DNA of 62,096 nt, filler included, from Vermamoeba vermiformis (taxonomy: Eukaryota), in assembly GCA_045837725.1 (NCBI GenBank). It is 3 parts of 3 records of this genome, joined end to end, with 100 filler letters (N's around TTAATTAATTAA, not from the genome) between each part and the next. Parts side by side here need not be neighbours in the genome. Positions count along the whole stretch, not along the records: positions 43,358 to 62,096 come from JBEWZL010000117.1; 2 more parts are not named here. One strand, given 5' to 3'. Of the stretch, positions 40,333-62,096 are shown piece after piece. The notes beneath the pieces are model-generated. The model was not told the origin of the DNA and did no database searches. It saw only the letters and a program-made list of their open reading frames with translations. Position numbers and translations under genes: made by a program. Within the stretch, counting starts at the first letter, position 1. Every line of letters starts with the position of its first letter.

Positions 40333-40335
40333 ACT

Positions 40336-43900: not shown

Positions 43901-44078
43901 ATTTGCTAATTAAAGCAAGCAATAGTATCATTTAATGCATCCTTCTTTGTAATCATATCTAATTGGATTGACTTTATATAGAATAGGGTTGGGGCTAGGC
44001 CCAACCTCAATAAACCACATGTTTTTAACAAATTAAATATTTATTTTAGGGTCCAACTGGACTACAAGCTTGCGTCTG

Positions 44079-44292
44079 GGTGCGAGCCACGCACTAAGAC
44101 AGCACACAAGACTTGGACGGTGCGAGCCACGCACCAGGAAAGTGTCCAAGACTTGGACGGTGCGAGCCATGCACCAAGACAGCACACAAGACTTGGACGG
44201 TGCGAGCACGCACCAGGAAAGTGTCCAAGACTTGGACGGTGCAAGCCATGCACCAAGACAGCACACAAGACTTGGACGGTGCGAGCACGCAC
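44079..44292. repeat. Tandem 39-40 bp hairpin repeat, 5 full units plus a partial, alternating A/B variants
   Basis: GGTGCGAGCCACGCAC-x-CAAGACTTGGAC units at 44079, 44119, 44159, 44199, 44238 and 44278. Confidence 0.93.
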
Positions 44293-44583
44293 TATTCTAC
44301 TTAAAAGGCTAGGGCTGGGATTATACGATGGGCATGAAACGCCCGGGATTGATGCGAAAACCATGCCCAAAAAATCGTGGCAAGAAAATGAAGCAAAATA
44401 GCCAAAAACGAACATGAGCATTATATATAGCCTTAGGAGTAGGCTGGTTTAGGTTTATAGGCTTTTGGCATTAAATGATACATTTTATATATATTTAGGG
44501 TTGCCCACCCTATGGGTTATGGGGTTGTTGGTGGCCCTTCAGGGGGTTTCTTGCGATTTGTGGGGTGTGACCTCCTTTCACCT

Positions 44584-45163
44584 GGAGGATGTTGTCCAAC
44601 AGGATGCGACCTCATTTTGATAGGAGGTTGTTGTCTGATGGGATGCGACCTGGTTTAGACAGAAGGTTGTTGTCCAATGGGATGCAACCTCGTTTTGATA
44701 GGAGGTTGTTGTCCGACGGGATACAACCTCGTTCGACAAGGCAGGTTGTTGTCCAGGAGGATGCAACCTCTTTCGGCAAGGCAGGTTGTTGTCCAGGAGG
44801 ATGCGACCTCATTTGACAAGGGAGGTTGTTGTCCAGTGGGATCCAACCTCATTCGAGAAGGGAGGTTGTTGTCCAGTGGGATGCGACCTCATTCGAGAAG
44901 GCAAATTGTTGCCCAACGGGATGCAACCTGGTTCAGACGGAAGGTTGTTGTCCAGTGGGATGCGACCTCGTTTTGATAGGAGGTTGTTGTCCGATGGGAT
45001 ACAACCTCGTTTCGATAGGAGGTTGTTGTCCGACAGGATGCAACCTGGTTTAGACAGAAGGTTGTTGTCCAACAGGATATGACCTTGTTTTGACAGGAGG
45101 TTGTTGTCGGAAGGGATGCTACCTAATTTGCATGTGAGGTTGTTGTCCAGGAGGATGTAATCT
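44584..45163. repeat. Tandem array of 15 imperfect palindromic 39-40 bp units
   Basis: Consensus GAGGTTGTTGTCC-N4-GGATGCRACCTC plus a ~10-bp variable linker. Confidence 0.93.
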
Positions 45164-45394
45164 ATATATTACACAGTTTGTATTATGAAAAATTTAGTTT
45201 ATTGGAGTTGTAGTGTTGAGCAATTTTTTTGAATTTTTTAGACAGTTTTCTTCTGAAAAATCGATTCATCTTCGAAATTGATTCTGTTTCACCATCATCC
45301 TCACTCTCCGTCTCATCTCCATCTGAATATTTGAGTTCGCTCAAGTGTCTGCACCGTTGAAATTATTTTACTGATTATTATTGCAACGGGAAAC

Positions 45395-46476
45395 TTACAA
45401 TTTGAGAACATGAGTAAGTGAGACAAAAATGTCAAACTGAAGGGGTTGCTGTTTCAACCAAGTCCAAAATATTGAATTGGTTTGAACAGTCTTTGAAGGC
45501 TGGCCAGAGTTTAACCAATTTGAAGGCAAGCTGGAGGGGAGAACACAGGTTGTGAAGCACTCAAACACTGTCAAGGGCGTACAAACCAACAAACAATGAA
45601 CTTTCTTGTTTTCGAATGTTGTCCGGTTGAAAACTTGAACATATCGCATGGCTGCTTGCTGCCATCCAGTGCAATAAAATTGAAGGTAGTCAAAGTCGTG
45701 TTCAACAAAATTGCAGAGCTGTCGCAAGTATTCAGTGCAAACACTAATTAACAGACTTTGATTTGCCTCAGTGCTTAAGAATTGGAAAGCATTTTGCCAT
45801 GGAGGTATACCTGGTTAATGTATCAGTAGTAGTAGAAGTAGTTTGCATTGAAGACAGCTTTTTTGTACCAAAGTAATGAGCCAAGCGCTGAAGAATTTCG
45901 TTTGTAATTAGCTCACCAAAGCCATTAAACAGTTCTGAGCACAGCAATTCAAACAAAGTTAAGTGTCTTCCAATATTGCCCACACGTGTAGCAAGTAGGT
46001 GGGTGAACAAACCATTTTCCATCCTAATATCTGGGCCCAGTTTATTGTTCCATTGTAATGCTGGCAGTACAGTAATTGCAGGCCCACTATGAGGAGTGCG
46101 TGGCAAGAAAATGAGGACTTGATCAACTCCGTCAAAGCTCATAATTGTAAAAGCCCATGAGTTAAAATTTTTTAATGCATTAACTTGGCAATAAATGACA
46201 ATATCTTCACTCGCTAGCTGAACTATAATTGCCGAGCCATCTGCCAAAATCAGTGCAAGCTGCTGTCCACGTGAGTAGATCTAGTTTACAATTATTAAAA
46301 TCAAGTGCGTGACTTCTATCAATTAAACCTACCAATTCTACCCGTAAGTAATACGTCTCTCTTTGTAGTAAAGTTGTAACTTTGCCGTTACTGCTGTAAA
46401 GTCGAACCAAGATCCTTCGAAGAATGCGCGCTGACAGCCAACGTTGCAAGCACTTATAGTCCACGTATTCGGCCAC
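45395..46476 (-). CDS. Degenerate NEIL1/Fpg-like protein, probably catalytically inactive (intron-containing; ends uncertain)
   Basis: AEYVDY aligns with MPEYLE, and DGSAIIVQL with IGKWLIIKL. Also KLGPDI, LFELLCSELFNGFGELITNEILQRL (H2TH) and YVQVFNR. Confidence 0.6.
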
Positions 46477-47315
46477 TAAATATATTTAATTAGTACGTTG
46501 AGCAGAGGCAGAGATCAGCGCATTTTGGATGCGCTACGATTTATAAACTTAATTAACCTATTGCATTAATAATAACGCTATTGCTCACTTACATGTTAGT
46601 AAAAATCCTCGATGCAGTGGCGTATTGTACTCCCAGCAAGGAATATTACCAAGATCACGTTCGCCGTGATCGGTGGTTGCTCGCCCAACGAGGGCAAGGA
46701 GTGTCGCCGTCGAAGCAACAATTTATTAAATATTTACTTACTCATAAAAGCGCGTTGTGAACGAATTGTGCACTCCTGTTTCAGATTGCTAAAATAGTAA
46801 GTCCGGTAACATTCCGTTTATTCGCAATTGTTGTAATAATTGTTATATTTTTAATTAGTAACCACCAGTGCCATATGTTTTGTGTAAGTTCTACCACGGG
46901 CTCGATGGTCCGTTGATAATGCAACTTCGTTTGGTTGCACGAATCTCGCTGAGTCCGCTGACTCGGCGAGCTTCATTTTCTAACAAGGAGTGCGTTAGCT
47001 CCATTTTCTTTATGGCGAATCGCCGTACTAATTTCTTTTTGAAGATGGGCGAATCCTGTCTTCAATTGAATTTAGTCACGAATTAATGGTAAATAATTGG
47101 CAGTTTATGCTGCTACGTTACCTTGAATTTATTGCTGCCGTGTTATTATTTATTTGGGCTTACAGGCCTAAAGAAATTTTGATCTCGAGATCTTGAAATT
47201 TTATTTATTTATTTTACCAAACAGAATTCCTTAGGCATACAATATATTATTTACAAATACACAAATAATAATAATATTGTTTATAATTAAATTCCAGCTG
47301 ACTTGGTTTTTCAGA

Positions 47316-48692
47316 TGACTTCGGTACTACAAGCGTTATCGTTGAAGTCAAAAGTCGATATCTACTTGGACTTTCTTGTGAAGGCTCGAAACAGAATATG
47401 GTTCGAAACAGACTTTCCGGATACCTTAGTGCGACAGATTCAACAGCATCCTGAATGGGTCACACGCGAGGATTTCGTCTTTTACTTCGTGTTTTTCGCA
47501 TATCATAAAATGCTACCGCCGTTGGATTTGGCGAAGCTGTATTATCCTACGTGGTACTTCACGTACCGCAATCAGATCGCTGCAACGCTCTCTTTGGACG
47601 TCAATAGCCAGCAATGGGCTGACTTCAACACCATCTTCAACACCTTTCCGTACCGTTTACAATCCGCGATGCAAATGTGCGCCGTGCGAGCTGCCAGTCA
47701 TCCCGCAATCGGAGGAGCTCAAGTTCAAACGCAATTTTATTTACTTTGGTGCGCTCTTCGCTTCAAAATGTCTTATTGGCAATCCGATAACACTCTGCGC
47801 GTGCTATTGGACGAGTTAGAAAAAGAAGACGCGAAATGCAACTACGATTCGCCGTTGTTCACGCTGGATCACAAAAACTGCTTAGCGCCACCACTTCAAG
47901 GTATGCCCACAATACTAATGAAAATACTAACCAACTATCAAGGTGTCCAACTCCCCAATTATTCTGTGTCTAAATCGCAGCAAAAGAAGAACAAGAAGAA
48001 AACGCCGAGTAACATCTATTACGAGCGTGTTGGCTTCGTACAAGAATGCAACAGATTAGGTTATCGTTGGTTTCATCCGCCAGAATTTAACAGAGCAAGG
48101 GCGATATACGAGATTGCTGAAAAAAAACGAAAGTTGGATGCCGATTCGACAAAAACTTCTGGCACTCCAAAACGTAGAAAGGTTAGTACCACTACTTTAT
48201 GATTTAAACGTCGGTTTTAATAAATTTAGTTGGAAGGCACAGAGTGCTATTCTAGCAATCAAGAAAACTACGCGCCGTTCGAGCAAATCGAGCACGATGC
48301 AGAAGTTGAAGCATTTTCTCACAGCCCTGTCTACCAGCCAATGTACGAGATGCCTGTAAGTATTATTAGTAACTTATTATCGAAGCAATTTACTGATACG
48401 GGTCCAGGATTCACCAAACGTGCCCCTCTCTCCCCCATCCGAACCAGAGACAGCGATTGCTTCCCCACCCCACCGTAACACCGAAAATGAGTCGTTAATC
48501 GACGCAGCATTTAAAGCTGTTACGGTTATTGAAGTCAGTGCGGCAGACACTCGCAAGATGCTTGAAGAGAACGCGTCTTACTTGGCAGCAGCAACCAGCG
48601 ACTTATTATGGTGCGTTGGACCGGGAGAAGGAGTAAGATTGCAAGAGATACTAATGCAAACATTGGCGTGGGTAGGTAACGAATTGTATTGA
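47316..48692 (+). CDS. Unknown-domain protein (paralog 1); may be spliced to the downstream LRR-like exons
   Basis: Long open exon 47316-48180 with downstream splice sites. Motifs are shared with the gene at 59364-60093. Confidence 0.65.
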
Positions 48693-48983
48693 CAACAGTG
48701 CTGATCCTTTCTCAGTACAGAGATCGAGCGAAGTTTGAGTTTTGCTGGACCCCCGAACTAGAGACTCGCGTTGCTAACCTTACAGAGGACCAGGCACACG
48801 CAACTTTGCTGAAAGAATATATAGTAAGTTCTCAATTCTCAAGGATTTGTTTTGTATCGTGATTAACTCTCTATCCTTCCAGCGGTCAACGGTGGGGCTT
48901 GAACTACTAACGACACTTCGCCTCTATGTAAGTTAGTAATTGCTACCGTGGGCGACTAATAAGTGTAGCCAAAATCAGGAAGG

Positions 48984-50529
48984 TTGAAGGCCTATTTGAC
49001 CGGCAAAAGAATATATGACACGTGCAACCCGCTACCCTTCGTGCGCGGAATTTGGGCAACCCCAAGTGTTTGCTGGCTTATCATCATATGGGAGCTATTG
49101 GAGATACCCTCTGCGATAGTAACCTTTGCTCAGACTTGCAAACAGGCGCTCCAGATCGTCTGTGCTTGCTTCTCCGTTTGTCCTTCTTGGCAGCGCTTCA
49201 AAATCTTCGCTAAGTTTGCTTCGGTCGGCATCAAACTCAAACTTATGGAACACAAGCATATACTTGGGCACCACTTCATTGCTGATAATCTACATTCATT
49301 TCGTGATGGCGCAAGCCCGTATTCCCAACTGCGCGAGCTGCATTTCCACCACGTTACTCTCATGCCCGACGACATTTCCGAGATTATAAGGTGTTGCACT
49401 ACTATCAAGTCTTTGGCGTTTCATGGTGCAACACTAATTCCCGAGTCACAAGCAAAGCTGAAGCAGATGTGAGTAAATCTGATAAGATCAATATCGGTAA
49501 TTAACTAATTGACCGTCGTTAGGCTATCACAAATACGATCACTTCAAATTACGGATCCTAACACTGTCTATGCAAGAGATAGGGTAAATATCTCCCAAAA
49601 TCTCCTGCCGATCTGCTTTCCAAATCTGGCTGCTCTCTCGCTCCGAAATATGACCATGGCTACACAAACGTACAACATGCCCTGCAATTTGTCTACAAAG
49701 CTTCTTTTCTTAGACTTGCGTACAAAGGGCTTTGTAAACAATTTCTACGGGTTTTTGAAGATTCGAAATCCATCCACCACCGACGTTCTCCAGGAACTCT
49801 ACAAGCTCTTTCCCAATATTCGTGGCTTACGCTTGCCATTGGCTGATCGCCCTACGAGAGAGAGAGGTGTAGTTAAGATATTTTTTCCTCCACCACCTGC
49901 GTCTTTGGAGTACTTGGAGCTGCACGGCTACGCGGATCCGGTTGGTGTGGAACTAGACCTTTGGCAAGTCAATATGGGGCAACGATTGCACTACCTAAGC
50001 TTCGTCGATATATTCATTCGCCTAACGCCCAGACCAACGCATCTCATCCCGAGTTACGGAGACGACGATAATTTAACGCGAAAATATTGGTCGCTATATG
50101 TTGGGGGTAGCACTCACCAACTAAACAGGCGGATATTCGAAGCAATAGTCAAGCAGAGACCGTAAGAACTCAATTGCAATTAGTAAAAATTTGTTAACGT
50201 CTAATTTTAGATTCTCGTGGAAATACAAAGAAGGGGTAGAGCCGCGTCTTATAGGGCCTCCTGCATCGTTTTCGCAACTGTTCGATGTAGCACAAAAGAT
50301 TGCCGTGAACTCCTCACCAGATTTAGAACGGAAGGTGCTTATAGAGAGAATTTCGCACGAACGCTGCTTCATGCCCGATATTCCGGATTTCAGGATAGCT
50401 TCAGATGCCGTCAAGACAGAATATAGGTGGCTGATGAAGGTGGCTCCCGGTGCGTTTGTTGTTGAGCAGGATAAATTCGAAAGTAAGAAACAATGGTTCG
50501 ATTGTTTTGTAACGGACTATCGCTCATAA
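48984..50529 (+). CDS. F-box/LRR-like exons (gene probably extends to the acidic exon ending ~51384)
   Basis: FAQTCKQ, QLRELHFHHV, IKSLAFHG, FPNLAALSL, FPNIRGLRL and SLEYLELHG. Confidence 0.55.
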
Positions 50530-51604
50530 ACTTGATATAAATAGGCCAATCATGTTGCGGCCGGCTTTTTTCGTCGTTTGTTCGTTTTTTTTCGTTTCGG
50601 CCACTTTTCTTCATTGTTACATTTTTTGGATACAAGCCAAGGCCACAAAAGTAAGTATCGTAAATACACAGCACAAGGGCCGTTGTCCTTGATGGTTGAG
50701 CTCGATTGTTCAATCAATTAGAGTACTTATTTCCGCGAAGGAAAAGGTACGCATCCGTCTGAGCTTTAATTAACTATTTAACGCCGTAGTGGACGTACTA
50801 AAGAAAGTAAAGAAGCTGGCAGCCAAGCGCAAGCGCGATTCTGGTCACGTGTCTCGCGGCAGTACACCATCATCCCACCGATCCACGAAACGAAGAAAAC
50901 TTTCTCTCTCACCTCGCGGTTTCATACCCTTACGCAAGCACAAAGTGAGCGGTAGTCCAAAGCTTAGTACGGTAAGATTAAAAGTTTCAAATCGGAGATT
51001 TTGGCGCGCTTTACTTAACTCCAATTTTAGGACTCGTCCACGGATGCGGTCGACCTACCTACCTCGCACAAGGGAGAAGACCACTCTGTGGAGGCTGACA
51101 GCGATCCACCTCCTGTCCGTTCAATACCTCCACGCCAAGCGAAAGTCTCGCGATATCTTGCCTACGGCGAGTCTTCATCCGGTCTCTCTAGCCCACTGTC
51201 TTCTGCTCCTAGTGATATGGATGAAGAGGAAGAGCTTGCTGAGTCTGATGATTTAGACTCCCCGGAGCTTGCTCGCAAGGACTGGGATGATCTACGAAAC
51301 CAAGATCAAGATCAGCCGACCCGCTCGGATGAGGAATTTGTGGAGCCTGACAACATTGGTAACGATGAAGAAGCTTTTTTTTAGGGTTAGGGTTATATTC
51401 TCCATCCGGATGAATCACCCTAAAAACCTTCTCCAGTTTTACTATTACAATGCGCATGAGTTCTCTAATAATGCGCATGAGTTCGCTTAATTAGTACAAA
51501 ATTGTACCAAGAGTATGTTGAAAAATAAAGTTTATTTTACAGTTACAGTACGTTGTACATGAAATTTCTATGTCAATTCCCATTATATGGGATTTGATTC
51601 AACT

Positions 51605-52070
51605 CATTCGCATGTAGACATCAGCATGAGGACATTCGCATGAAGACATCAGCATGAGAACATTCGCATGCTTCATCCGAATGACTGACACTAATGGGGC
51701 ATGCGCATGTAAATTAAACATGCGAATGTATTTACTATCATGCGAATGCAGTAACGGACTGTCTGCCATGCGAATGTACTCGCTGCCATGCGAGTGTGAT
51801 CACTTGACTGTCATGCAAATGTACTCGCTGTCATGCGAATGCAATCACTTGACTGTCATGCGAATGTACTTGACTGTAATGCTGTCATGCGAATGTACTT
51901 GGCTGTCATGCGAATGTACTTGACTGTCATGCGAATGCAGTAACGGACTGTCTGCCATGCGAATGTACTCGCTGCCATGCGAATGCGATCACTTGACTGT
52001 CATGCGAATGTACCCGCTGCCATGGTGATCACTTGACTGTCATGCGAATGTAATCACTGTCATGCGGAGT
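51605..52070. repeat. Bidirectional array of the decamer CATGCGAATG
   Basis: Three reverse copies (51605, 51632, 51661), a central CATGCGCATG palindrome near 51700, then about 15 forward copies or variants from 51719 to 52061 at mostly 20-29 bp spacing. Confidence 0.92.
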
Positions 52071-52575
52071 GACACGTGTCAAATATCTCACCTTTGCGCG
52101 GTGGCACATTCAAATACTCGTCGCTCAGTCGGCAGCGGAATTAACGCGGAACTTTGGTCTGGTGGTGTCAATCGGCTGTTCTCCAGTCTCGCTCTCCTGT
52201 GCCGTGCTGTCCTCACTCGTGCTATTATTAGCCTCAGTGGCACTCTCCGTCTCTTTCTTCACCACGCGCTTGGGTCGCATGATGAGTGCGCGCGTGCGAC
52301 TCTGCACCAGGGCACATTTCTCCGCAATCTCCGCACTCGAGATGACGGGTCAAGTACTCGCTGTGCTCGCTCAGCTACGTGCTGCTGTCACTGCGAGTGT
52401 ACTGTGGCCACCACGAGTAGAAATCGTTGCTCGTGCGCATGTGAAGCACCACCAAATAAACTAGAAAAAACAAGTAAATAAGAGTTTGAAGTAAATACAT
52501 ACATAATATTTATTAATTGTTTTTGTTTTTTTTTTGAATTTGATATTAAATATATATAAAATACTCGTGGACAAA

Positions 52576-55483
52576 TTACATCGTCTTTTGTCTCTTCTCC
52601 TCTCGCTCTTGTTCGAGAAGTTTTGCCAAGGAGAACGTAGTAATCTTTCTCTTCTTCTCGGGGTTGGCAGCGGCGGGTGCATTGTTAGACGGAGTACTAC
52701 CATCGTTGTTGACCATGACAGGAACAGGCTTGTTGTACGAAACCTTCGGAACAGGCACCGGTGTAGGTGATGGCATCACTGGCACAGGCAAGGGGACTTT
52801 TTGCTCTCGTTGTCCTAGTATGACCTTTGGACGACAGTACTTGACGACGGTGTTGGGCTTAGGTTTGCTTGGTTTCGGAGTCTTGCGAGCACTCTCGATG
52901 GACGTAGTTCTCCGGCTACAGTCACCGTACACAAGCTTACGGGATGGCCCTGGCTTCAAGTTCGTGTTTGCGCCAGTTCGCATGTTGGTGTTTGCGTCGG
53001 TTTTCAGGTTGGTATTTGTGCTTGTGTCCTTGTTCGTTTCCCATTCAGGTGGAGCATTCAAATCCAAAGGAGGCGTTGAGGGTGCGTTCGAATCCTCAGC
53101 AACAATCGAGTTGATCGTATGGGTAGGAGAGTCAGACGAAGAAAGTGAACTGTGAGCAGCGTGGTAAGAATCAGACTCAAGAGCATCATCAGAATCAGAG
53201 ACGATATGAGAAGATTCGATGGACTCGCACTCGGCATCACTCTCGTCGCTGTCCTCGCTGGCCTCACTTTCTTCGCTTTCTTCGCTTTCTTCGCTTTCTT
53301 CACTCTCGTCATCACTTCGGTCCTCGTCGCTCTTGTCGTCATCACCGGAATTAGCGCCAGAACCTCCTGATTCGCCTCCCGAGCTGGATCCATCAGCAGA
53401 GTCGCGTGAGCTTTCATCATGGCTCTCCTTCGAATCAGATGAAAAACCAGAAGACAGCTCCATAGAGCTGCTGTCAAGGCTGGACTTTTTTGTCGAGTAG
53501 CAACCTCCGATTGTAGCCCAGTACGTGTTGACGAGTGACATGAACGCAAGTAGCTTGGGCCCAGGCAAAGTTTGCTTGGTGCCATCTTTGAACAAGACTT
53601 CGAAGCAAACGGACTGTCTCTTGCCAACGAACTTGTGACCAACGATTCGGTCAATACTGTCTGCAAAGTCGTCATGAGTCTTGTCGTAGCGCTTCTCAAA
53701 CTTGTTGATGACGCTCGCCATGGCCTCGGAAGGAGCTATTCCAACCGTCTCGTTGACCTCCTTCAGCGTCTTTTCGTTGACACCAGCACGTTGAACTCTG
53801 TCGTAGTGCGTGCTCATAACGGCAGGTGAAGTATTGATCAGTGCTGCGTGCTTCTCGCTGAAAAACTTCGAGATGTCGTTGTTCAAGTGATGTTCGGTCA
53901 GAAAAGAGACCAGCGCACGACGGAAATAAGCGCAGCTGATCGCTCTTCCTGGGAAGTAACTCGCAACGACATTGCTCACCACCTTCGAGAGTGTAGTGAA
54001 GTCTAAACGAGCGAAGGTTAGCGACAAGATGAGTTTGAAACAATTACTTACTAGGTGCGTTACCGTCTCGATTGACCCACATGGACTCAACTCCTTCGTT
54101 ACGAACCAGAGGCAAGTAGTGCTCGAACCAAATTCGCAACGGTACTGCAAACGCTGCAGGCAGCAAGAAGAAATCTGTCTTGGCTCGCTTGACTTTTTCC
54201 GGTGGTGGGAAGAACTTGACAGTGTTTCCCTCGAAGACAATGTTCTAATTAAATAATTAGTAAAGTATTGATTAACGGAGCCGATTTGTAGTTCGTACCG
54301 ACACCGTCATTGAAGCCGTGAACTGTCGTCGTTGTCCTCCAAGATACATCATTCCAAGGACGAACAAGTTGCCCATGAAGTTGAACATTCCTTGTCGCGA
54401 CAAAGCTGAACTTTGTCGCTCTTTCGTCAAGAACTTGTCATCCAAGTTGATGTAATACACCAACTTGTCACAGATGTACGCGTTCAACTGCCGTAGCTCG
54501 TCTTGATGAAGCCACTGCCCAAGTAACATCAGGTTCTCAATCACCATTTTATTCGCGTTAGCCTTGGCTTCGTCTTTCGCTTCTGCAGGTCAAAATAGTA
54601 TCAGAATCGTAATCGTACAGAATATGTTCGCAACTTACTTGCACAAGGAGCACGCAGCAAGTCCTCCACTGCATCAATCCGTGCCCTGTAATTGGCAAAC
54701 TCTTCGAGACCCTATTACAGAATTAGATTACACCCCATGACCACAAGTAGTTACTTACGTGAAGATACTTCAAGAACATTCGAATAATCTTCAGGCAATT
54801 TGCAATCGTGCTTGCAGACTTGCCCGTGGATTCGTACCACCGCGGAAAAGCGGCCGCCACGCGAACGTCCAGTAGATGACGAAGGTCTACTACGACTGGT
54901 TTCACTTCTGTATCGACAAAACGAAAGAAGATGCCAAGCATAGAACGAGTTTCGGCGCCGCGATCAGAGCCTGTGTTGGACAAGTGCTTCTCTTTCACCT
55001 TGAGTTCGTCTGCGGCAGAGGATTTTTTCCTGGTCTTGCGCTCACGTTTGATGTAAGTATCGAACAACTTCGGTACCTTGAAGTACTTGACCGAGACTTG
55101 ATCAAGCGAGAGAGCATTAATTCGTAGCGGCTTTCCTGTTCTTGAATCCCCTATTAATAAAGTTAACAAACTTAACCACCGGGACTAATTAGTCTTAAAC
55201 TTACTTTCGGCAACAGCAAACTCCTTAGTTGCTAAGTCTTCAGGTACATCTTCCATATCAACGACTACAGGAGCGTCGCTATATTGAAGCAAAGCCTTTT
55301 TGACGTTACTGAGCTCAGTGCGAAGCCTTTTAATCTCCGGCGAATCTGCTTAGACTGTAAGACTCGGTTACAGAATTACTGAAAGGCTTACCATTCATTG
55401 TCGCTGTAGACTCTTTTTTCTGATCCGCGTCCTACAAATTGTCAACAAAAATTTTTAAAATTCTGTTGTGTTACCTTCTCCAT
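52576..55483 (-). CDS. Intron-containing tyrosine recombinase with chromodomain-like module and acidic/Ser-rich tail
   Basis: SAM-like KSASTIANCLKIIRMFLKYL. Catalytic region: GGQRRQ (R), PPEKVKR (K; in a spliced frame absent from the ORF track), MWVNRDGNAP, AYFRRA (R) and LINTSPAVMSTHYDR (Y). Followed by IDRIVGHKFVGKRQSVCFEVLFKDG...LVNTYW. Confidence 0.82.
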
Positions 55484-55615
55484 GATTGCGAAAGATAAAG
55501 ATTGAAAAAACGCCTACGAAAAAAAAAATTGTTAACCACGTGACTTTTGACGAACTAAAATTTATAAGTCCAAATATAGTACGTTCTGAAAATAAAATTA
55601 AGTAATCTCACAAGC

Positions 55616-55990
55616 ATGGAACCACACAACCAAACTCCACTCCTCGATCAATACTACGGCAGTGATATGAGCGACGAGACAGTTGAGCAGGCATATCTTA
55701 AGATTGAGGAGCTGCTTAGCTACGCACGAGAGGACAGTAACAACACCATTCTTGTTGGCGACGGCGATGATATTGAGTGCGAACAAACCTTACCCTATGA
55801 ACACGAGAACGACGAGAACGACGAGAAGAACGAACGGGAAGTATTATCATGGCAAATCAAGGATCCGCGCACGTGGTTAGAGAAAGATATAAATAAATCG
55901 CCACGCACATGGTTTGAAGACAATTTTATCATGAAATTGCCTGAAGAAGAACGAGAAGAAGTCCGACGGAAATACAACAACGGTAACTAA
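55616..55990 (+). CDS. Small acidic hypothetical protein
   Basis: ATG-initiated 124-aa ORF divergent from the recombinase, with internal repeat PRTWLEKD/PRTWFEDN. Confidence 0.6.
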   Translation: MEPHNQTPLLDQYYGSDMSDETVEQAYLKIEELLSYAREDSNNTILVGDGDDIECEQTLPYEHENDENDEKNEREVLSWQIKDPRTWLEKDINKSPRTWFEDNFIMKLPEEEREEVRRKYNNGN

Positions 55991-56060
55991 AAATAACTCC
56001 GCCGGATAACCTCCGGTACAAAAATGTTAGCGATTAATAAATTATGCATTTAATTACAGA

Positions 56061-57212
56061 AATGGGAGAGAAGTAAGTCTTACCTCATTCTAGTCTTAAT
56101 TTTAACATGCCATAGCGAACTGCGATGCTTATGTTCGAAAGAACACGGACACTTTTACGTGCACTCAAAAGATTTTTCCGAGCAATGGTTTGGTAGAGGT
56201 GCGTTAGCTGGATTGCTCGGAATGACAAAGAACTCTTTCTGTTCTAAGCTATCGATCTACGTGCTCAATTGCCCGGCTGGCTGCGCACCGTTCAACACGC
56301 GCAAAGTCTTTCATTCTAGCGGCAACGGCAGCCCAATACGCCCAGAACGTTACTATACGTTGGAAGAAGCCAACGATATACTGAGACAATGGCTTACGCG
56401 CCCAGGAGGGAAAAAGGATTGGGTAAAGAGATTGCACGAGGCCAACGATTTTTTGAAAAACTTACCGAGGGTGCAGCTCGTTGTTGTAATCCAACGATCA
56501 GAAGACAAGAAGTACTTCCAAATAGCACGCCAACAGCAAGTGCCGCTTGATGAGCGCGACACGCAGAACAAGCCTAAACCAGAAGCTTTTAACGACGATT
56601 GTGGTGAAGCGGACTCCGAAGGATATTCTGCCGAAGCAATTGCTGCACTGACCGAGATGCAATCGGACTCGGCCGCCGATGAACTTGCCAAACCAGAGAT
56701 AGAATCTAGCGTCGGCCACGTGATTGACCAAATACAGCAGTCCTCGGAGATACATGCTCCCGGTGTTGTTGGGGCAACACCAGAGTTTGCGGAATCTAGC
56801 GTTGCCCACGTGATTGACCAAAAACAGCAATCCACGGAGATACGTGATCTCGGTGCTGCCAACACCGTGCCAGAAATCATCGATGTTGATGAGTTTGTGA
56901 TTCCTACTAAAGGTAACGTTAGTACTCTGTTACGATCGCATATTGATTAATTTGTCAGCGGAAAAAAATTGGAAGCAATCTTCAATCGAAGCTATGCTGA
57001 AAAATAAGGACACGGACTCAAAACAAAAGAAAAAGACGAAGAAAAGAAAATTAACCGTCGGTCTATCAAACCCATCGCCCCTCCCTTTCAAGAAGCCCCG
57101 TAATGTAAACAAGCATAAGAAGGATAAGAAGGCAAAGAACGCTTCTGAATCAGACATGCCCGAGTACGAAGATGATGATTTTGCGGTACTATTTCCACCG
57201 AACATTAAGTAA
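56061..57212 (+). CDS. Hypothetical nuclear protein with Bro-N/HTH-like N-terminus, internal repeat and basic NLS-like tail
   Basis: ATG micro-exon at 56061, QWFGRGALAGLLGMTK...YYTLEEA, two copies of ESSVxHVIDQxQQSxEI and KQKKKTKKRK. Confidence 0.55.
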
Positions 57213-57295
57213 TTTTAAATTGAAATAAACGCAAAGTTATTGATTTGTAAATCGTAAACTTTCAGCGCGTGTTGTTTCGCATCGCACTCACACAA

Positions 57296-57958
57296 ATGTC
57301 AACGCAAGCGAGTATATTCGCGCAAGTAATGGTTTATTTGTAAATACTTTTCGACTGTAATTCAACGCACTAACCCGTCTTGCTAGCAAAACGAAACCAG
57401 TTATAGAAATAAGGTAGGTTAGGTTGTCTTAAATTACTAACAAGCAACAGGACAGACGATGTATTGGCCAACGACGAACTCGGCGTGTATTTAGTTAACC
57501 AAGAAGACAATGTTTACCTATCGCTCGACTTCGTATTGAAAATATTGCCGGAAGGGATCGTATTCCACGATACTTCTCGTGTCACATTGATTAAAGTGCC
57601 CGGTTATGTTAACTTGCTTCGTGTAATTAACGTGCCGGATCTGGATGTGATGATAAGGAAATTAGTTGCGGAAGTAAGTATTTTTACATCGAATTAGTGC
57701 CTCGTTGTAACGCCTCTGTTGCAGGTGAGCGACCCGGAAGTTCAGTTGCAGAACATTAAAAAAAATTTGCAAGATTACAACATTTACGGCTACTTACACG
57801 TGTGTCTGGATGCCGGAGAACCAAGACTCATTGGCACGTATGACATGTTCCAGGGAGACTATAACAGAACAGGTCATGTATCCGAAAGCATGGAATTAAC
57901 CTTCGATGGTTATGGTCCTGAGGGCACGCAGTATAACCTGATAAACCTCGACGAGTGA
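57296..57958 (+). CDS. Small multi-exon protein, possibly Bro-N-like
   Basis: EDNVYLSLDFVLKIL...KVPGYVNLLRVINVPDLDVMI, with short GT-AG introns. Confidence 0.5.
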
Positions 57959-59363
57959 CCTGAAATTCATTATATGAACGAACCACAAAATAAATGTTTG
58001 CTTTAACTTACCTTTGCGGCGAGCTCGTAAATCCGTTTGGTGCAGCAATTCTGTTTGGATTAACGCCATACACGTTTCGTTTAGTTACACACTCGTTTGA
58101 ATGTGTCTATTATAATAATCAACTCGTGTTGGAGTTTGCTGGTACTATCACTAAACTCGTGTTTGAGTTTGTTGTAAATAGCAGCTGATCGAATCTGATC
58201 AGAATTGTGACCTAAAAATAACTTCATTTGCGATAAACAAATATTTGTTAAAGATTAGCCTGTTACAGCTAATAGTATTTATTAAATCGTTTACAAATTG
58301 CAAACGAAAACAAAATTATAGAAGTGTTCGGATGTGACCAAGCCAAACGATTCGGAACGGGTCCAAATTAAGCTAGTAATTGTTTGCCCGCTGTAAAACA
58401 GCGCAGGCTTGCTTTAACTATTGCAATACTCGTGGCATTGCGTACGAGAGAGCCAGAAAGCAGCTCTCTAGAAGATCAGACTTACTTGCCGGGCCAAAGC
58501 CCCAGACTCCGGTGGTAACTCGCAACTGCTATTTAGGCTCGTTCCAAGTAACAGGTCATTTGTTTCTAAATAATAACAATTAATTAAAAGGCGATCAGAC
58601 AAAAATTATTAAAATTTAATTTCAGGTTAAAATATTACCTGAAACTAGAGTCTTTTGACTTCAGCTTGCTTTCAATCAATTTGATATATTCGTTTGTGAA
58701 CAGACTCGGAGAGCTGGGGATCGGTTTGGGTGCTCGATTTGACGGAATCTTCTTTGCGTGCCTCGATCGAAAGCAACGCGCAATAAGAGGACACTAAAAT
58801 TTGTGTGAAAAAATAAATAAGCAGATCAGTTGTGGTTGATCTGTCTGAAAAAAAAATGGTAAAAAATAAAATTTCGGATCAAAGTTAATGTCCGGCGATT
58901 GAATAAATTTAATGACGACAATTCAGCCACATTCAAGTTTCGCTGTTTACAAGGCGGTGCAGTAGAATTATTCCGAGGATCAGATTTGATCAAACGAGTG
59001 AAATCTGCCGCGTTTCACCATGTTTTTTGCAACTTTCGTCATTGTAACAATTTTGCCTAATGAGTGAACACAGAAGATTCTCGGAGTTGCCTTTGGCCAA
59101 TACGTAAGTACCAAACGCAGCATGATTAACTCCGAATTCGCGATCAGGGTTATTAAACCTGACAATTTAATTATATAAAGCACCGAAATACGGTCAATTT
59201 TAATTTATAATACGAGCAAGTCATGACTTGCTTATTTAAAATATTAAAAAAAAAATTGAAATTGAATCCCCAGAAATAATTTTTTTCCTACCCAATTAAA
59301 TACACGAGTGACCTATTCGTGTTGGTTAATTAATTTATTTGTTTGCTATTGCGAACATATTGA

Positions 59364-62096
59364 GTGAATCCGGATCGACATCTCACCTTTAATAGAGGTG
59401 TACCTTCACGCGCAGTAACAGAAAGTAACATTGCTTTCTATTTGGACTTTTTTATGGAAACCAAAGGGGCGCGCATCTCCAAGGCCCTCAAAGATCAATT
59501 TATAGAAGACGTTCGGATGCAATTCGAACTCTACAGCGAAAAATATCGCAAAATTCCTTTATTTTTATTTGTTTTAACGTATTATGGTACGTAGTATGAA
59601 CTTAACAAATAGAATATATAACTGACGTTTCCACTTAGCGTACCAAGGATTTTTGGATTTGCCGACTATGCCCAAAAATTCGTACCAATATCCTTTGTGG
59701 TTCGAAGGATACAAAGACGCAATGACCAGAAAGCTTGGCTTGGTGGCTAGAAACGGAACGGAATGGACCTATGTCAATGAAATTTCGAGTCGAATGCCTC
59801 GAATTATTGACACATTAATTAAATGGTCCTTTGAATGGCACCAGCAGAACGCATCTCTCGAACACCAGCAACTACCGACAGAAGAAAAGAGAAAACGGGT
59901 GTACTATCAAGTGTTTTGTGCCTTACAGTACCACCCGAAGTTTTGTTTCAACAAGCACAACTTCTTTGTCTTGTTGAATCGTAGGGATGGCGCTATAACG
60001 CCAGATTATACTTGTCCGTTCTTTACGCGAAGTTCTTATGGACCCGAGCCTCTAGGTGTGTATTTACTTCGTCTATCAGAAAAAGCTAATTGACGTATGT
60101 AGTTGATTACAACCCGCCCTCCGGAGCAAAGGAATTAGGCTCTGGTGACCCGAACCACGTAACAAGTAAGCTATTTAATTCCATTTATTTAAACCCGCCT
60201 AACTTTCTGGTAGTACTTAAGCCAGAAGACCAGAACGCTGCTGTGTACTTTTTGAAAGATCCGTTTAAACAAAACTCTTGGAGTAAGAAACGAACAATTG
60301 TACGTACTCTCCCGTGACAGCGTGTATACACAGTACTAATCAATTAACAGGACCAATTGACACCGCCCTTGGTCGTGCAGCGGGAGCTTCCTCCTGCGTT
60401 TTGAAAGTCCGCAGACGCTTCGACTTACAACATGGTCATTGAAGACGAGCCCTCTAACTTCTCGTCATCCTTTCCATATCCAATTGTGAAGCCTGGCGCT
60501 GTAGTCAATCAAGTCGTGCCGTTATACCAACGCGAAGCCTCATTAAACAATAAAGAACGGAAAGAACCTTCAGTTTATTCACAAGCCCAAACTGATCGAC
60601 GCGTTCGCAGCGAGAGCACAGATGTTTCACTTCCGTCGATACAATGCTATTCTCCGATGGATAATACTGAAGTTGTTTTCATAAATGATAGTTCTGCTGA
60701 ACAATTACAGCCATCCCAATACAGTATTCAGTTCGGCGACGTTGGATTCGACGGTCAGAGTCCAGTTGGTCCACTGTTCCAATCTACGCACGTATCAAGC
60801 TTCAGTCCAAATCCACGGCATAACTCTTCTCACTGGGCTTATTCTGTACCTATTATAGAGTCAAATCGACGCGATAAAATTTCGGGTCAAACCCGCTCAA
60901 ATCCACCTAACCGTGATCGATCGCAGCAATCTCGCCATAACCATACTGCGTCACGTACTGCATCAGACAATATCGTGCCGCATCAAACTCGGCACAACGT
61001 ACATTCAACCGAAAACAGCGTTGGGCCACCACATGCAACCGAATATAGTAACGAACAGCCGCAGACTAGGACATATGATATTAACCAGCACAGCGTTGGA
61101 AAGCCTCACCTTGCGCATCGTAACACCGCGCCTGTTACTCAATACAAATCCCCTGCTCAATATGGCGCCGTATCGTCGCGTGTTACTAGTTATAACATGG
61201 CGCCATCTCACACCAGCCAATACAGCGCAGCTCCTACTAAACGCAATCCCCTACCACCACGTGCTACTCAACCCTACGCATCTCACGATATTCGACGGAC
61301 CAACTCCAGTACAGCCACTCATGACACCAATAGCAGCAATGGTAGTGCTCAGCACAGGGCTTTACAACCAAGTGCCACTCAACACAACGCAGCGCCGCCT
61401 CATAACAGTTTAGGCAATCCAAGTGACGTACAACCGCGTGCTGCTCATGCCAATGATGCATCGTCTTACAGTGTTCGTCCCAGTGCTTCATCTGCTCACC
61501 ACATCGCTGTGCCACCGCGTGCCGTAAACCACGATGCAGCACCACCTCTGGACACGCCTCACGATGCTTCAGCTGCACAGCACATCGCTGAGCCACCGCG
61601 TACTGCACAGCACTATGCAGCATTGCCTCGTGACACTCGTAACAACACTTCAGCTACGCAGCACACCACTGTGCCACCACGCGCAGCACAGCACGATGCA
61701 GCACCACCCGTATCTAATACAAATGGCGTTAGTGCTTCGGGATTTTCTTCTTCAAGTCTCGTAGCAATGGAACTCGATCATGATGATAGCGCTAACCTTC
61801 AGTCGGTTCCAGAAACGTTCGTTCACACGCACGAGACTGGCGTTAACCCTGTGACAAAGGATCTAACCTGCATCAGTGCTCCAGCTTCGAAAGAACACGC
61901 TCAGACTGGCTCTGTGCAAATGCGACCTGAAAGTGAGGGTGTTCCTAGCTTTCAGCTTGCACCTTCAACGCTGGCAACTTCCGACTCAGTCCCGTGCTCC
62001 ACAGCTTCTTCGAGTTCAATTGCAATAGAGGCGAAGTACTTCTCTTTTCCCTCTGTCTTACCGCCGATAAGCACGGGATCAAATGCACGCAGCCCT
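59364..62096 (+). CDS. Unknown-domain protein (paralog 2) with long P/Q/S/Y-rich low-complexity tail, running off the window
   Basis: Exons 59364-59590 and ~59640-60055 resemble 47316-48180. Later exons are low complexity. Confidence 0.55.

What the first reader, a model, noticed from the sequence alone, without database searches (positions are those of the whole stretch)
44079..62096. Contig 3 may be part of a large (>18 kb) tyrosine-recombinase element or endogenous virus-like region
Seen: no housekeeping genes, only a recombinase, a pseudo-glycosylase, Bro-N-like genes, F-box/LRR-like exons, duplicated orphan domains and three structured repeat arrays. The genes have host-type short introns. 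Established: fungal Starships are large cargo elements moved by a tyrosine recombinase. Inference: an analogous protist element. No capsid, packaging ATPase, polymerase or termini are visible here.
Basis: inference. Interest (0 to 1): 0.72.

Follow-up and report, generated by a model that had tools for sequence, protein, structure and literature searches.

The report
Multi-copy tyrosine-recombinase element in repeat-rich contig
The contig is not one 18-kb virus-like element: it holds a smaller multi-copy block, built around an intact intron-bearing recombinase gene of an undescribed family, that looks like a Crypton-type jumping gene among satellites and orphan genes.

Summary
Contig 3 runs from 43358 to 62096; 44079 is only the start of its first satellite. 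The recombinase is real. It is an intact 8-exon, 852-aa gene (52576-55483, minus strand). Its family profile matches a reference tyrosine-recombinase profile at 93-96% probability, against 0.4% or less in controls. A chromodomain-like module follows the catalytic domain. No Pfam model detects the family, and only 12 of 1.84 billion representative proteins match it.

Contig depths in a run of the same organism are uneven. The left part (44.8-51.0 kb) is at about 141-150. The recombinase block (about 51.0-56.8 kb) is at 578-745, with several sequence variants. The right part (56.9-61.9 kb) is at about 251-267. Two water-metagenome runs hold the right 11 kb at 99-100% identity but almost none of the left 6 kb.

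The three repeat arrays, the duplicated orphan domain and the short introns are confirmed. The "pseudo-glycosylase" and "Bro-N" calls are not, and the F-box/LRR call is weak. No viral hallmark gene was found.

Best reading: a Crypton-like recombinase element of about 6 kb (possibly 11 kb or more), with a divergent partner gene and a dyad-symmetric 10-bp motif array. Ends and mobility are not shown.

The parts
43737..43898 (-). Weak integrase-core (rve_3) remnant near the left end of contig 3
   Evidence: Pfam PF13683, E 0.008, 16.4 bits, below the cut-off of 26.5. Depth in X1 is about 172.
44079..44292 (.). Satellite array, 79/40-bp unit, 2.7/5.4 copies
   Evidence: TRF score 398. Summed depth in X1 is 2361 in this bin, against about 141 in the neighbouring unique DNA.
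44584..45157 (.). Satellite array, 39/78-bp unit, about 14 copies
   Evidence: TRF score 470-518. Summed depth in X1 is 3802. Also present in X3 and X4 at 12.9 and 10.8.
45398..46485 (-).
   Evidence: No Pfam family at E<=0.1. No PDB sequence match better than E 1.9. No similarity to the Fpg/Nei gene of contig 2. Lies in the depth-141 part.
47315..48202 (+). Orphan gene B, a single ORF of 295 aa from the ATG; shares a domain with gene H; ends in KRRKVS
   Evidence: ORF list. Paralogy with 59626-60090 at E 4e-6. No relative in IMG/VR. C-terminal motif.
48969..50529 (+). Orphan gene C, LRR-like exons; the gene model is uncertain
   Evidence: Sub-threshold PF24758 LRR hit, E 0.0025. Exon chaining by my own script.
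50774..51384 (+). Basic/acidic low-complexity coding exons (gene D or the tail of gene C). The depth step in X1 falls at about 51020, just before the last exon
   Evidence: ORFs, model. An X1 contig of depth 150 ends at 51020, and the next bin averages 594.
51381..51392 (+). TTAGGGTTAGGG, two telomere-type units, at the point where the X3 and X4 contigs begin (51383, 51404)
   Evidence: Only match in the window; 0.03 expected; 3 of 100 shuffles give one or more. Contig starts.
51605..52066 (.). Dyad-symmetric array of the 10-mer CATGCGAATG. Three copies on the minus strand (51605, 51633, 51661), a palindrome CATGCGCATG at 51700-51709, then 14 copies on the plus strand (12 exact) up to 52050. 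Candidate recombinase-binding or terminal region
   Evidence: 23 matches at one mismatch or less in the window against 4.1 expected; 0 of 100 shuffles reach 23; 20 of the 23 lie here. TRF. Summed depth in X1 is 2125. Array-length variants in X3 and X4.
52576..55483 (-). Tyrosine-recombinase-like gene, 8 exons, 852 aa. Order of parts: N-terminal coiled-coil-like stretch, core-binding domain, catalytic domain (R303, K330/K335, R405, Y444), chromodomain-like module (about residues 495-545), acidic Ser-rich tail, KKRKITTFSLAK end
   Evidence: Splice model. Colinear with P0008 and with metagenome loci L001-L003. hhalign against a reference recombinase profile: 92.9% local, 96.0% global; controls 0.4% or less. 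Residue mapping. Chromodomain from the fold of the aligned P0008 segment and from the family profile against PDB.
55484..55615 (.). 132-nt intergenic region between the divergent recombinase and gene F start codons; presumed shared promoter
   Evidence: Sequence. The promoter function is inferred.
55616..57208 (+). Gene F, a conserved orphan partner gene read divergently from the recombinase. Exons about 55616-55982, 56060-72, 56116-56912 and 56959-57208. Contains a coding 90-bp repeat (56702-56865) and a KKRKLT motif
   Evidence: Model. Two homologs, P0134 (76% identity) and P0135 (55%). Its 5' part lies in a contig of depth 578; the contig covering 56863-57876 has depth 267.
57413..57958 (+). 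Orphan ORFs (gene G, or further exons of gene F)
   Evidence: ORFs, chaining model, no Pfam or PHROGs hit.
59364..62096 (+). Gene H, a multi-exon orphan. Its N-terminal domain is paralogous to gene B. Its long low-complexity tail contains an 81-bp coding repeat and runs off the contig end
   Evidence: ORFs, paralogy, TRF 61484-61708. A single X1 contig of depth 251 covers 57891-61876.
51020..56860 (.). Approximate extent of the high-depth (multi-copy) block: array, recombinase gene and the 5' part of gene F. The boundaries are fuzzy (left 51020-51400, right 56470-56860)
   Evidence: Logan contig depths in X1: 745 (52671-53074), 663 (53106-55014) and 578 (56062-56465), against 141-150 to the left and 251-267 to the right. 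Two letters coexist within X1 at 55399, 52362, 56744 and 56778.

Best explanation
Contig 3 is a repeat-rich chromosomal stretch, not one 18-kb element.

Its active-looking core is a multi-copy block of roughly 6 kb (about 51.0-56.8 kb). The block may continue to the right, for 11 kb or more. It has three parts:
1. An intact, intron-bearing gene for a tyrosine-recombinase-like protein fused to a chromodomain-like module.
2. A conserved partner gene (gene F) read divergently from a 132-nt intergenic region.
3. A dyad-symmetric array of a 10-bp motif, about 0.5 kb downstream of the recombinase gene.

I read this as a Crypton-type DNA element. The recombinase would bind the repeated motifs, cut and rejoin DNA through Tyr444, and excise the element as a circle that reintegrates elsewhere. 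The chromatin-reader module would bias insertion to repeat-rich chromatin.

Shown here: the gene is intact, it is homologous to tyrosine recombinases, the fold of the reader module in a homolog, the uneven depth, and the variant copies.
Inferred: mobility, the role of the array, the role of gene F, and chromatin targeting.
For: 1. Gene model. Eight exons with no stop give 852 aa. The model aligns without breaks at the exon junctions to the intronless P0008 (28% identity over 383 aa, E 1e-41) and to metagenome loci.

2. Recombinase homology. A family alignment was compared with a profile of 15 known recombinases: 13 PF00589 proteins of E. coli K-12, lambda Int and Cre.
- hhalign gives 92.9% (P 3.7e-7, 331 columns) in local mode and 96.0% (P 2.3e-9) in global mode.
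- The reversed family alignment gives 0.4%, and 9 column shuffles give 0.1% or less.
- R303, R405 and Y444 align to the XerD catalytic Arg, Arg and Tyr, and a Lys aligns in the hairpin.
- Y and the INTS motif are invariant in 12 of 12 family sequences.
- In the ESM Atlas, 21 of 30 nearest named clusters belong to PF00589 sets, scores 0.93-0.94 (a lead only).

3. No reverse transcriptase or other transposase among 148 ORFs, and the gene has introns. This points to DNA-level propagation.

4. Copy number and variants.
- X1 contig depths are 663-745 over the recombinase gene, 141-150 to the left and 251-267 to the right.
- Two letters coexist within X1 at several places, for example at 55399, 371 of 554.
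- X1, X3 and X4 all carry a 9-nt insertion behind 53873 that the window lacks.

5. Other runs. X3 and X4 hold 51.4-61.5 kb at 99-100% identity in pieces of 299-884 nt. Depth over 45233-50857 is zero in X3 and at most 0.17 in X4, apart from one piece of about 200 nt.

6. Reader module. P0008 residues 610-668 fold as a chromodomain: Rhino chromodomain Z 8.7, rmsd 2.2 over 59 aa; Cbx3 TM 0.82. They align to window residues of about 495-545. Against PDB sequences, 6 of the 10 hits to the family profile are chromodomain proteins, best E 0.009.

7. Partner gene. The homologs of gene F (76% and 55% identity) parallel the closest recombinase homologs (78% and 60%).

8. Motif array: 20 of 23 window matches lie here, and 0 of 100 shuffles reach 23.
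Against: - No termini, target-site duplications, empty sites or circle junctions were seen. No dispersed repeat links contig 3 to contigs 1-2 or to itself.
- Depth of Logan contigs is not a clean copy number, as the tool itself warns. I could not lay reads on contigs 1-2 to fix the single-copy baseline.
- The depth profile is stepped (about 15x at the array, 5x at the recombinase, 1.8x on the right), not a clean box.
- No Pfam recombinase model hits any family member, even at E<=10.
- hhalign against lambda Int relatives alone gave only 2.6%, and against single Cre or Int sequences nothing.
- With database proteins only, leaving out my spliced rows, the profile match drops to 8.9% (P 0.0037).
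- The HxxR histidine is Ala402, and the second histidine is not securely placed, so activity is uncertain.
- Intron positions are shared with a 30%-identical homolog, which would also fit an old host gene.
- The related loci L002 and L003 show neither gene F nor a comparable array.
Confidence: 0.5

Rival explanations
1. A host gene family, not a mobile element. On this reading a domesticated recombinase-derived chromatin protein (recombinase fold, chromo reader, acidic tail and a nuclear-localisation-like end) and its neighbour gene were amplified by segmental duplication in a heterochromatic or subtelomeric region.
For: - The histidine of HxxR is missing in all members.
- Three intron positions are shared with a homolog of about 30% identity.
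- There is a long acidic tail and a KKRKI..LSLAK end.
- A similar [KR]3K[ILV][STC] motif ends four different proteins of the contig: 4 of the 5 matches in the window.
- Genes B and H are paralogs lying on either side of the block.
- The depth profile is stepped, and a TTAGGG dimer sits at the boundary.
- No termini were found.
- Crypton-derived host genes are documented (PMC3212892, passages read).
Against: - R303, R405 and Tyr444 are kept across a family that has diverged to 24-30% identity. Domesticated DUF3504 genes are reported to lose most of the tetrad (PMC3212892, abstract passage).
- Several sequence variants coexist at high depth.
- The family is patchy and rare: 12 of 1.84 billion representatives, all on contigs of 9 kb or less.
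- The block is found without the left flank in two other runs.
Confidence: 0.25
2. A large cargo-carrying recombinase element, analogous to a Starship. It would span at least the right 11 kb, or the whole contig and beyond, with the orphan genes as cargo.
For: - The recombinase carries a C-terminal chromodomain, as does Kirc of Enterprise (PMC8092012, passages read).
- X3 and X4 hold the whole of 51.4-61.5 kb at similar depth, about 3-5.
- All genes are orphans.
- GC is 0.38-0.50, against 0.34-0.45 in contigs 1-2.
- The contig ends inside repeats on both sides, so the true ends could lie outside it.
Against: - In X1 the left 6 kb, the recombinase block and the right 5 kb have three different depths: 141-150, 578-745 and 251-267.
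- There is no DUF3435 domain.
- The recombinase is not at an end of the contig's unit.
- No direct or inverted terminal repeats were found.
- Related loci carry the recombinase gene alone.
Confidence: 0.15
3. An endogenous large DNA virus or a Polinton-like insertion.
For: Only indirect: orphan genes, a GC content that differs from contigs 1-2, and a recombinase of a type that viruses can use to integrate.
Against: - 0 of 148 ORFs reach any Pfam cut-off. That covers capsid, packaging ATPase, polymerase, primase-helicase, protease, Bro-N and KilA-N models.
- No PHROGs hit at E below 0.04 for 13 proteins.
- No relative in IMG/VR for the recombinase or for gene B.
- The genes carry spliceosomal introns.
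Confidence: 0.03

Closest known systems
Crypton DNA transposons (Goodwin et al. 2003, recalled; Kojima & Jurka 2011, PMC3212892, passages read)
   Same: A recombinase-encoding element with no reverse transcriptase. The recombinase gene has introns. Size is a few kb. Copy number is low. Boundaries are hard to see. An extra ORF occurs in some families.
   Different: No GCR1_C, DUF3504 or C48 peptidase domain was detected. The recombinase is fused to a chromodomain-like module. The HxxR histidine is absent. A dyad-symmetric motif array lies beside the gene. No terminal 4-6-bp direct repeats could be defined. The relation to the CryptonF, S, A and I groups was not tested by phylogeny.
Kirc, the captain of Enterprise / Starships (PMC8092012 and PMC11162782, passages read)
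   Same: The same domain order: core-binding domain, recombinase catalytic domain, C-terminal chromodomain. The proposed role of the reader domain in choosing insertion sites is also shared.
   Different: No DUF3435 signal in Pfam. No zinc finger was seen. The multi-copy block is about 6 kb, not tens to hundreds of kb. Cargo mobilisation is not shown.
DIRS / Ngaro / PAT tyrosine-recombinase retrotransposons
   Same: A eukaryotic repeat that encodes a tyrosine recombinase.
   Different: No reverse transcriptase or RNase H among 148 ORFs. Seven introns in the gene. No inverted or split terminal repeats.
Crypton-derived host genes and DUF3504 elements (ZMYM/WOC etc., PMC3212892 passages; Glomhopper, PMC13465315, abstract only)
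   Same: A recombinase fold inside a nuclear protein that has other chromatin or DNA-binding parts. Intron-bearing copies lie in repetitive compartments.
   Different: No DUF3504 hit. Arg, Arg and Tyr of the tetrad are kept here. Depth is multi-copy and variant copies coexist.
Chromoviruses (Gypsy integrases with a chromodomain; recalled, and cited within PMC8092012)
   Same: A mobile-element enzyme fused to a chromodomain as a targeting device.
   Different: The enzyme class (DDE integrase) and the life cycle are different.

Membership tests
Tyrosine recombinase superfamily | Core-binding plus catalytic domain, alignable to known members | tested here: met
   hhalign of the family alignment against a profile of 15 known recombinases gives 92.9% (local, 331 columns, P 3.7e-7) and 96.0% (global). 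The reversed alignment gives 0.4%, and 9 valid shuffles give 0.1% or less. The spliced window protein alone gives 46% (P 2e-4). Database rows alone give 8.9% (P 0.0037).
Tyrosine recombinase superfamily | Match to Pfam PF00589 (Phage_integrase) at its cut-off | tested here: not met
   No PF00589 hit for the window exons, P0001-P0010, P0012 or the L002 ORFs, even at E<=10. Only a sub-threshold PF02899 SAM-like hit, E 0.049.
Tyrosine recombinase superfamily | Catalytic residues R-K-H-R-H/W-Y | tested here: inconclusive
   R303, R405 and Y444 align to the XerD Arg, Arg and Tyr. K332 and K335 align to the two lysines of XerD's KGNK hairpin. K330 is kept in 4 of the 4 sequences that cover it. The first His aligns to Ala402. 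The second His is not securely placed; H429 is present in 10 of 12 sequences.
Tyrosine recombinase superfamily | Recombinase fold of the catalytic domain | tested here: inconclusive
   The AF2 model of P0008 has pLDDT below 50 over residues 346-465 and 62-77 over 500-610. The fold searches were filled by the chromodomain and BAH parts.
Crypton DNA transposons | Encodes a tyrosine recombinase, has no reverse transcriptase, and propagates as DNA (introns kept) | tested here: met
   Recombinase homology. No reverse transcriptase, RNase H or other transposase family among 148 ORFs. Seven introns.
Crypton DNA transposons | Several dispersed copies and insertion polymorphism | tested here: inconclusive
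   The block has about 4-5 times the depth of the left flank and coexisting variants in X1. X3 and X4 hold the block without the left flank. No second copy with its flanks could be read.
Crypton DNA transposons | Short (4-6 bp) terminal direct repeats at defined ends | tested here: inconclusive
   Ends cannot be placed more closely than 51020-51400 and 56470-56860. No informative repeat was found.
Crypton DNA transposons | Group markers: GCR1_C (CryptonF), DUF3504 (CryptonA) | tested here: not met
   No such Pfam hit at E<=10 in the six family sequences scanned (P0008, P0009, window exons and L002 pieces), nor at E<=0.01 in 11 family proteins.
Starships | Captain recombinase with a DUF3435 domain | tested here: not met
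   No DUF3435 hit.
Starships | Captain at the 5' end of a large cargo element bounded by direct repeats or TIRs | not testable with these tools
   The contig ends in repeats on both sides, no termini are seen, and no genome is held.
DIRS/Ngaro retrotransposons | Reverse transcriptase / RNase H ORF and an intronless recombinase | tested here: not met
Endogenous NCLDV / Polinton-like virus | Hallmark genes: major capsid protein, packaging ATPase, DNA polymerase, protease, primase-helicase | tested here: not met
   0 of 148 ORFs of 50 aa or more reach any Pfam cut-off. No IMG/VR relatives for two proteins. Exons under 50 aa were not scanned.
Chromodomain | Three-stranded sheet plus helix fold | tested here: met
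   Shown for the homolog P0008, residues 610-668 (pLDDT about 90): Rhino Z 8.7, rmsd 2.2 over 59 aa; Oxpecker Z 8.4; Cbx3 TM 0.82. The window segment aligns to it. The window protein itself was not folded.
Chromodomain | Aromatic cage for methyl-lysine | tested here: inconclusive
   A Trp at the expected strand position is present in P0005, P0007, P0008, P0009, P0010 and P0012. It is absent in the window protein and in P0001-P0004 and P0006 (alignment). The cage positions are recalled, not computed.
Bro-N / KilA-N | Pfam or PHROGs match | tested here: not met
   The fold of gene F could not be modelled (pLDDT 38.7).
Fpg/Nei DNA glycosylase (within contig 3) | H2TH / Fapy_DNA_glyco domains | tested here: not met
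   No hit for 45398-46485. No similarity to the true Fpg/Nei gene of contig 2. The LGPD and G-x-G..EIL look-alike motifs are my own reading only.

The most novel reading that the evidence does not exclude
This may be a previously undescribed superfamily of eukaryotic tyrosine-recombinase DNA elements. The recombinase would be fused to histone-reader modules: a chromodomain here, a chromodomain plus BAH domain in relatives. It would work with a dedicated divergent partner gene, possibly a directionality or DNA-binding factor. It would act on a dyad-symmetric array of 10-bp sites. Such elements could carry extra orphan genes (11 kb or more) and home to repeat-rich or telomere-adjacent chromatin.
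Probability: 0.2. Interest if true: 0.7.

Novelty: new variant of a known kind. Interest (0 to 1): 0.45.

Why it matters
Recombinase-driven DNA elements in eukaryotes (Cryptons, Starships) are few and are known mostly from fungi, oomycetes and animals. Here is a recombinase family that no Pfam model detects. It is known only from unnamed or 'hypothetical' environmental sequences. It carries chromatin-reader domains, and in one genome it is intact and multi-copy.

If it is mobile, three things follow:
- It widens the range of such elements.
- It offers a compact test system: one protein, a candidate binding array and a candidate partner.
- It gives a second, independent case, after Kirc, of a recombinase targeted by a chromodomain.

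If it is a host gene family, it is another example of recombinase domestication into chromatin proteins.

Tried and rejected
RNA evidence
- RNA run X14 was laid on the contig. Of 268 reads, 266 lay only partly on it, at A/T runs (52509-52541, 59238-59255), so nothing can be said about expression or splicing.
- No RNA holder was listed.

Family and structure searches that gave nothing usable
- Rfam on the whole window: 0 matches.
- PDB sequence searches with the recombinase piece, the 45771-46280 ORF and gene F: nothing below E 0.5.
- ESM Atlas on gene F: best score 0.85. A Phage_Cox cluster scored 0.83, which is below the level of a lead I can use.
- AF2 model of the gene F domain: pLDDT 38.7, so it was not searched.
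- AF2 model of P0008: the catalytic domain was too uncertain to test the recombinase fold.
- hhalign against single Cre and lambda Int sequences: no match. Against lambda-Int relatives only: 2.6%.
- A fragment alignment, A5, misplaced exons 4 and 6 and was dropped.

Chance or uninformative results
- A weak DUF7869 hit of the recombinase exon (E 0.0077). The true DUF7869 protein of contig 2 looks like a DDE enzyme and shows no similarity to it, so I read the hit as chance.
It was repeated with the closer alignment A3.
- L002 has no array downstream of its recombinase gene.
- An X1 'letters between' row joining 47998 to 57166 rests on a short Lys-codon-rich match and was not interpreted.
- One of the 10 column shuffles failed with a format error and is not counted.
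- P0011 (5012 aa, 10 short stretches, E 4e-5) was not examined.
- Earlier findings of this scan: three look-ups, nothing returned.

Full report
LAYOUT
The window is three contigs joined by N spacers: 1-31452, 31553-43257 and 43358-62096. No whole genome is held for it. The finding's start, 44079, is the first base of a tandem array, not the start of the contig. GC in contig 3 is 0.38-0.50 per 2 kb, against 0.34-0.45 in contigs 1-2.

WHAT THE CONTIG HOLDS
Tandem Repeats Finder gives three non-coding arrays and two coding repeats:
- 44079-44292, 79/40-bp unit (non-coding)
- 44584-45157, 39/78-bp unit (non-coding)
- 51605-52066 (non-coding)
- 56702-56865 and 61484-61708 (coding)

I scanned 148 of the 164 stop-to-stop ORFs of 50 aa or more against Pfam. 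The 16 left out lie inside the two satellites. None reaches a gathering cut-off (the main 22 ORFs were also scanned). The best rows are all sub-threshold:
- an LRR model, E 0.0025
- an rve_3 integrase fragment at 43737-43898, E 0.008
- a SAM-like recombinase N-domain, E 0.049

There is no capsid, packaging ATPase, polymerase, Bro-N, KilA-N or glycosylase hit. PHROGs gave nothing below E 0.04 for 13 proteins. IMG/VR holds no relative of the recombinase or of gene B. Rfam gave nothing.

A true Fpg/Nei glycosylase gene does exist, but on contig 2 (39247-40329; H2TH E 1e-7). The contig 3 ORF that resembles one by eye has no similarity to it. The 'pseudo-glycosylase' and 'Bro-N' parts of the observation are therefore not supported, and F-box/LRR is weak.

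The 'duplicated orphan domains' are real. Gene B (47291-48199) and gene H (59626-60090) align at 21% identity over 124 aa, pairwise E 4e-6.

THE RECOMBINASE GENE
On the minus strand, seven GT..AG introns of 43-56 nt join eight exons, from the ATG at 55483 to the stop at 52576. The result is an open 852-aa frame.

The model is supported from outside the window:
- It aligns colinearly, with no gap at any exon junction, to P0008, an 849-aa protein read from a single uninterrupted frame (28% identity over 383 aa, E 1e-41).
- It also aligns to metagenome loci L001-L003.
- The L002 gene has introns at the same places as window introns 4, 6 and 7.

The family is very small:
- A word-based search of 5.8 billion proteins found 2 relatives.
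- A full HMMER pass over 1.84 billion representatives found 12 at E<=1e-3. I did not examine one of them, P0011.
- The 20 cluster members listed for P0001-P0010 are all unnamed or 'hypothetical protein', on contigs of 9 kb or less.

IS IT A TYROSINE RECOMBINASE?
Pfam does not say so. PDB sequence search is blank for the catalytic part. hhalign against single Cre or lambda Int sequences found nothing. Against a profile of lambda-Int relatives only, it gave 2.6%.

I then built a broader reference from 13 PF00589 proteins of E. coli K-12, plus lambda Int and Cre. Against it I ran a family alignment that includes the spliced window and L002 proteins. The results were:
- local mode: 92.9% (P 3.7e-7, 331 columns)
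- global mode: 96.0% (P 2.3e-9)
- reversed family alignment: 0.4%
- 9 valid column shuffles: 0.1% or less
- window protein alone: 46%
- database rows alone: 8.9% (P 0.0037)

The alignment covers both the core-binding and the catalytic domain. It pairs GGQR303 with XerD TGLR, a lysine hairpin (K330/K332/K335) with KGNK, R405 with the Arg of HxxR, and Y444 with the nucleophile Tyr. The histidine of HxxR is Ala402, and no family member has His there. The second His is not placed securely.

In the ESM Atlas, 21 of 30 nearest named clusters belong to PF00589 sets. That is a lead and not a test.

I conclude that the protein is a divergent member of the recombinase fold class with Arg, Lys, Arg and Tyr kept. 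Whether it is active is open.

READER MODULE
The AF2 model of P0008 is poor overall (mean pLDDT 55.5) but confident in two C-terminal domains:
- Residues 610-668 match chromodomains: Rhino Z 8.7, rmsd 2.2 over 59 aa; Oxpecker Z 8.4; Cbx3 TM 0.82.
- Residues 767-845 match BAH domains: AIPP3 Z 8.7; EBS Foldseek E 3e-4.

The chromodomain segment aligns to window residues of about 495-545. Against PDB sequences, 6 of the 10 hits to the family profile are chromodomain proteins, best E 0.009. In place of the BAH domain, the window protein has an acidic, Ser-rich tail. The Trp expected in the aromatic cage is missing in the window's sub-clade (alignment; the cage positions are recalled).

The only recombinase-chromodomain fusion I saw in print is Kirc of Enterprise (PMC8092012, passages; PMC11162782, passages). 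Two literature searches bear on this:
- 'crypton' + 'tyrosine recombinase' + 'chromodomain' gave 8 papers, 6 of them listed.
- 'tyrosine recombinase' + 'BAH domain' + 'transposable' gave 0 papers.

NEIGHBOURS OF THE RECOMBINASE GENE
Gene F starts 132 nt from the recombinase ATG, on the other strand. It has two homologs, at 76% and 55% identity. That mirrors the two closest recombinase homologs, at 78% and 60%. Its fold could not be modelled.

About 0.5 kb downstream of the recombinase stop lies the 51605-52066 array. It has three copies of CATGCGAATG on the minus strand, a palindrome CATGCGCATG at 51700-51709, and then 14 copies on the plus strand. In the whole window there are 23 matches at one mismatch or less, against 4.1 expected. 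None of 100 shuffles reaches 23, and 20 of the 23 matches lie in the array. Its role as a binding or terminal region is my inference.

COPIES AND OTHER RUNS
The stretch 50000-59999 is held by two runs of one sample labelled organism A (0.92 and 0.91 of words) and by three water-metagenome runs of one study (0.57, 0.41, 0.38).

I laid contig 3 on X1, X3, X4 and X14. In X1 the single Logan contigs have these depths:

| Region | Depth |
|---|---|
| 44791-49616 | 141 |
| 49601-51020 | 150 |
| 52671-53074 | 745 |
| 53106-55014 | 663 |
| 56062-56465 | 578 |
| 56863-57876 | 267 |
| 57891-61876 | 251 |

The satellite bins sum to 2361-3802 and the 51.5-52.1 kb bin to 2125.

Within X1, two letters coexist at several places in the block (371 of 554 at 55399; 1006 of 1647 at 52362). 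X1, X3 and X4 all carry a 9-nt insertion behind 53873 that the window lacks.

X3 and X4 cover 51.4-61.5 kb at depth of about 2-7, in pieces that are 99-100% identical to the window. Over 45233-50857 they show zero (X3) or at most 0.17 (X4), apart from a piece of about 200 nt at 46286-46482 that has other flanks. Their contigs begin at 51383 and 51404, next to the only TTAGGGTTAGGG in the window (51381-51392).

The tool warns that summed contig depth is not a copy number, and I could not measure the baseline on contigs 1-2. With that caveat, the block of about 51.0-56.8 kb behaves as a repeat of some 4-5 copies with sequence variants, the right 5 kb as about two copies, and the left 6 kb as the lowest-depth class.

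WHAT WAS NOT FOUND
- No dispersed DNA repeat between contig 3 and contigs 1-2, or within contig 3.
- No terminal direct or inverted repeats around the block.
- No homolog of any other contig 3 ORF beside the recombinase gene in L002 or L003, and no comparable array there.
- RNA reads gave no usable evidence.

READING
The evidence fits best a Crypton-type element. It encodes a tyrosine recombinase, has no reverse transcriptase, keeps its introns, is a few kb long, has low copy number and has ends that are hard to see (PMC3212892, passages). Here it also has a chromatin-reader fusion, a partner gene and a motif array, and it sits in satellite-rich DNA.

A domesticated, duplicated host gene is the main rival. 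The points in its favour are the missing histidine, the shared intron positions, the nuclear-localisation-like ends shared by four proteins of the contig, and paralogs B and H on either side of the block.

A larger cargo element is possible only for the right 11 kb or beyond the contig. A viral origin has no support.

Noticed in passing
window 33777-34784 (-), contig 2: ORF with a strong DUF7869 match (E 4.7e-39). It has DDE-transposase-like motifs (my own reading of ...VDN...GHTHEDID...). This is probably another transposon family in the same assembly.
   Followed up: partly
window 39247-40329 (+), contig 2: Fpg/Nei-type DNA glycosylase ORF (H2TH E 1e-7, Fapy_DNA_glyco E 1.3e-5).
   Followed up: partly
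window 51381-51392: Two telomere-type TTAGGG units directly after the stop codon of gene D. They sit at the point where the contigs of two metagenome runs begin (51383, 51404).
   Followed up: partly
window 48170, 50888, 52656 (-), 57039: The motif [KR]3-K-[ILV]-[STC] ends four different predicted proteins of contig 3 (genes B, D, the recombinase and F). That is 4 of the 5 matches in all six frames of the window. Recombinase relatives end in a similar KK.KI.LSL motif.
   Followed up: partly
P0008, P0009, P0010 (relatives): These relatives carry a C-terminal BAH-like domain after the chromodomain, where the window protein has an acidic Ser-rich tail.
   Followed up: yes
window behind 53873: All three DNA runs laid (X1, X3, X4) have a 9-nt in-frame insertion that the window lacks. 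P0001 and P0002 show extra residues at the same place. The window copy is therefore a minority variant or a separate copy.
   Followed up: partly
window 46286-46482: A piece of about 200 nt is present in X3 and X4 at depth 15 and 4 with a different left flank, while the DNA around it is absent there. It is probably a separate small repeat.
   Followed up: no
window 86-3480 and 5617-7432 vs 13279-16809, contig 1: Protein-level paralogs within contig 1: a tandem pair at 54-68% identity, and an inverted duplicate block at up to 79% identity.
   Followed up: no
L002 29-447: Three copies of a unit of about 150 bp lie at the 5' end of the metagenome contig that carries the recombinase homolog. L001-L003 come from different assemblies and are 99.7-99.9% identical.
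   Followed up: partly
window 52062-52481 (+): GC-rich ORFs of 131-139 aa lie between the array and the 3' end of the recombinase gene, in the bin with summed depth 1640. X1 has loose ends at 52066, 52172 and 52350, which point to other contexts for this stretch.
   Followed up: no
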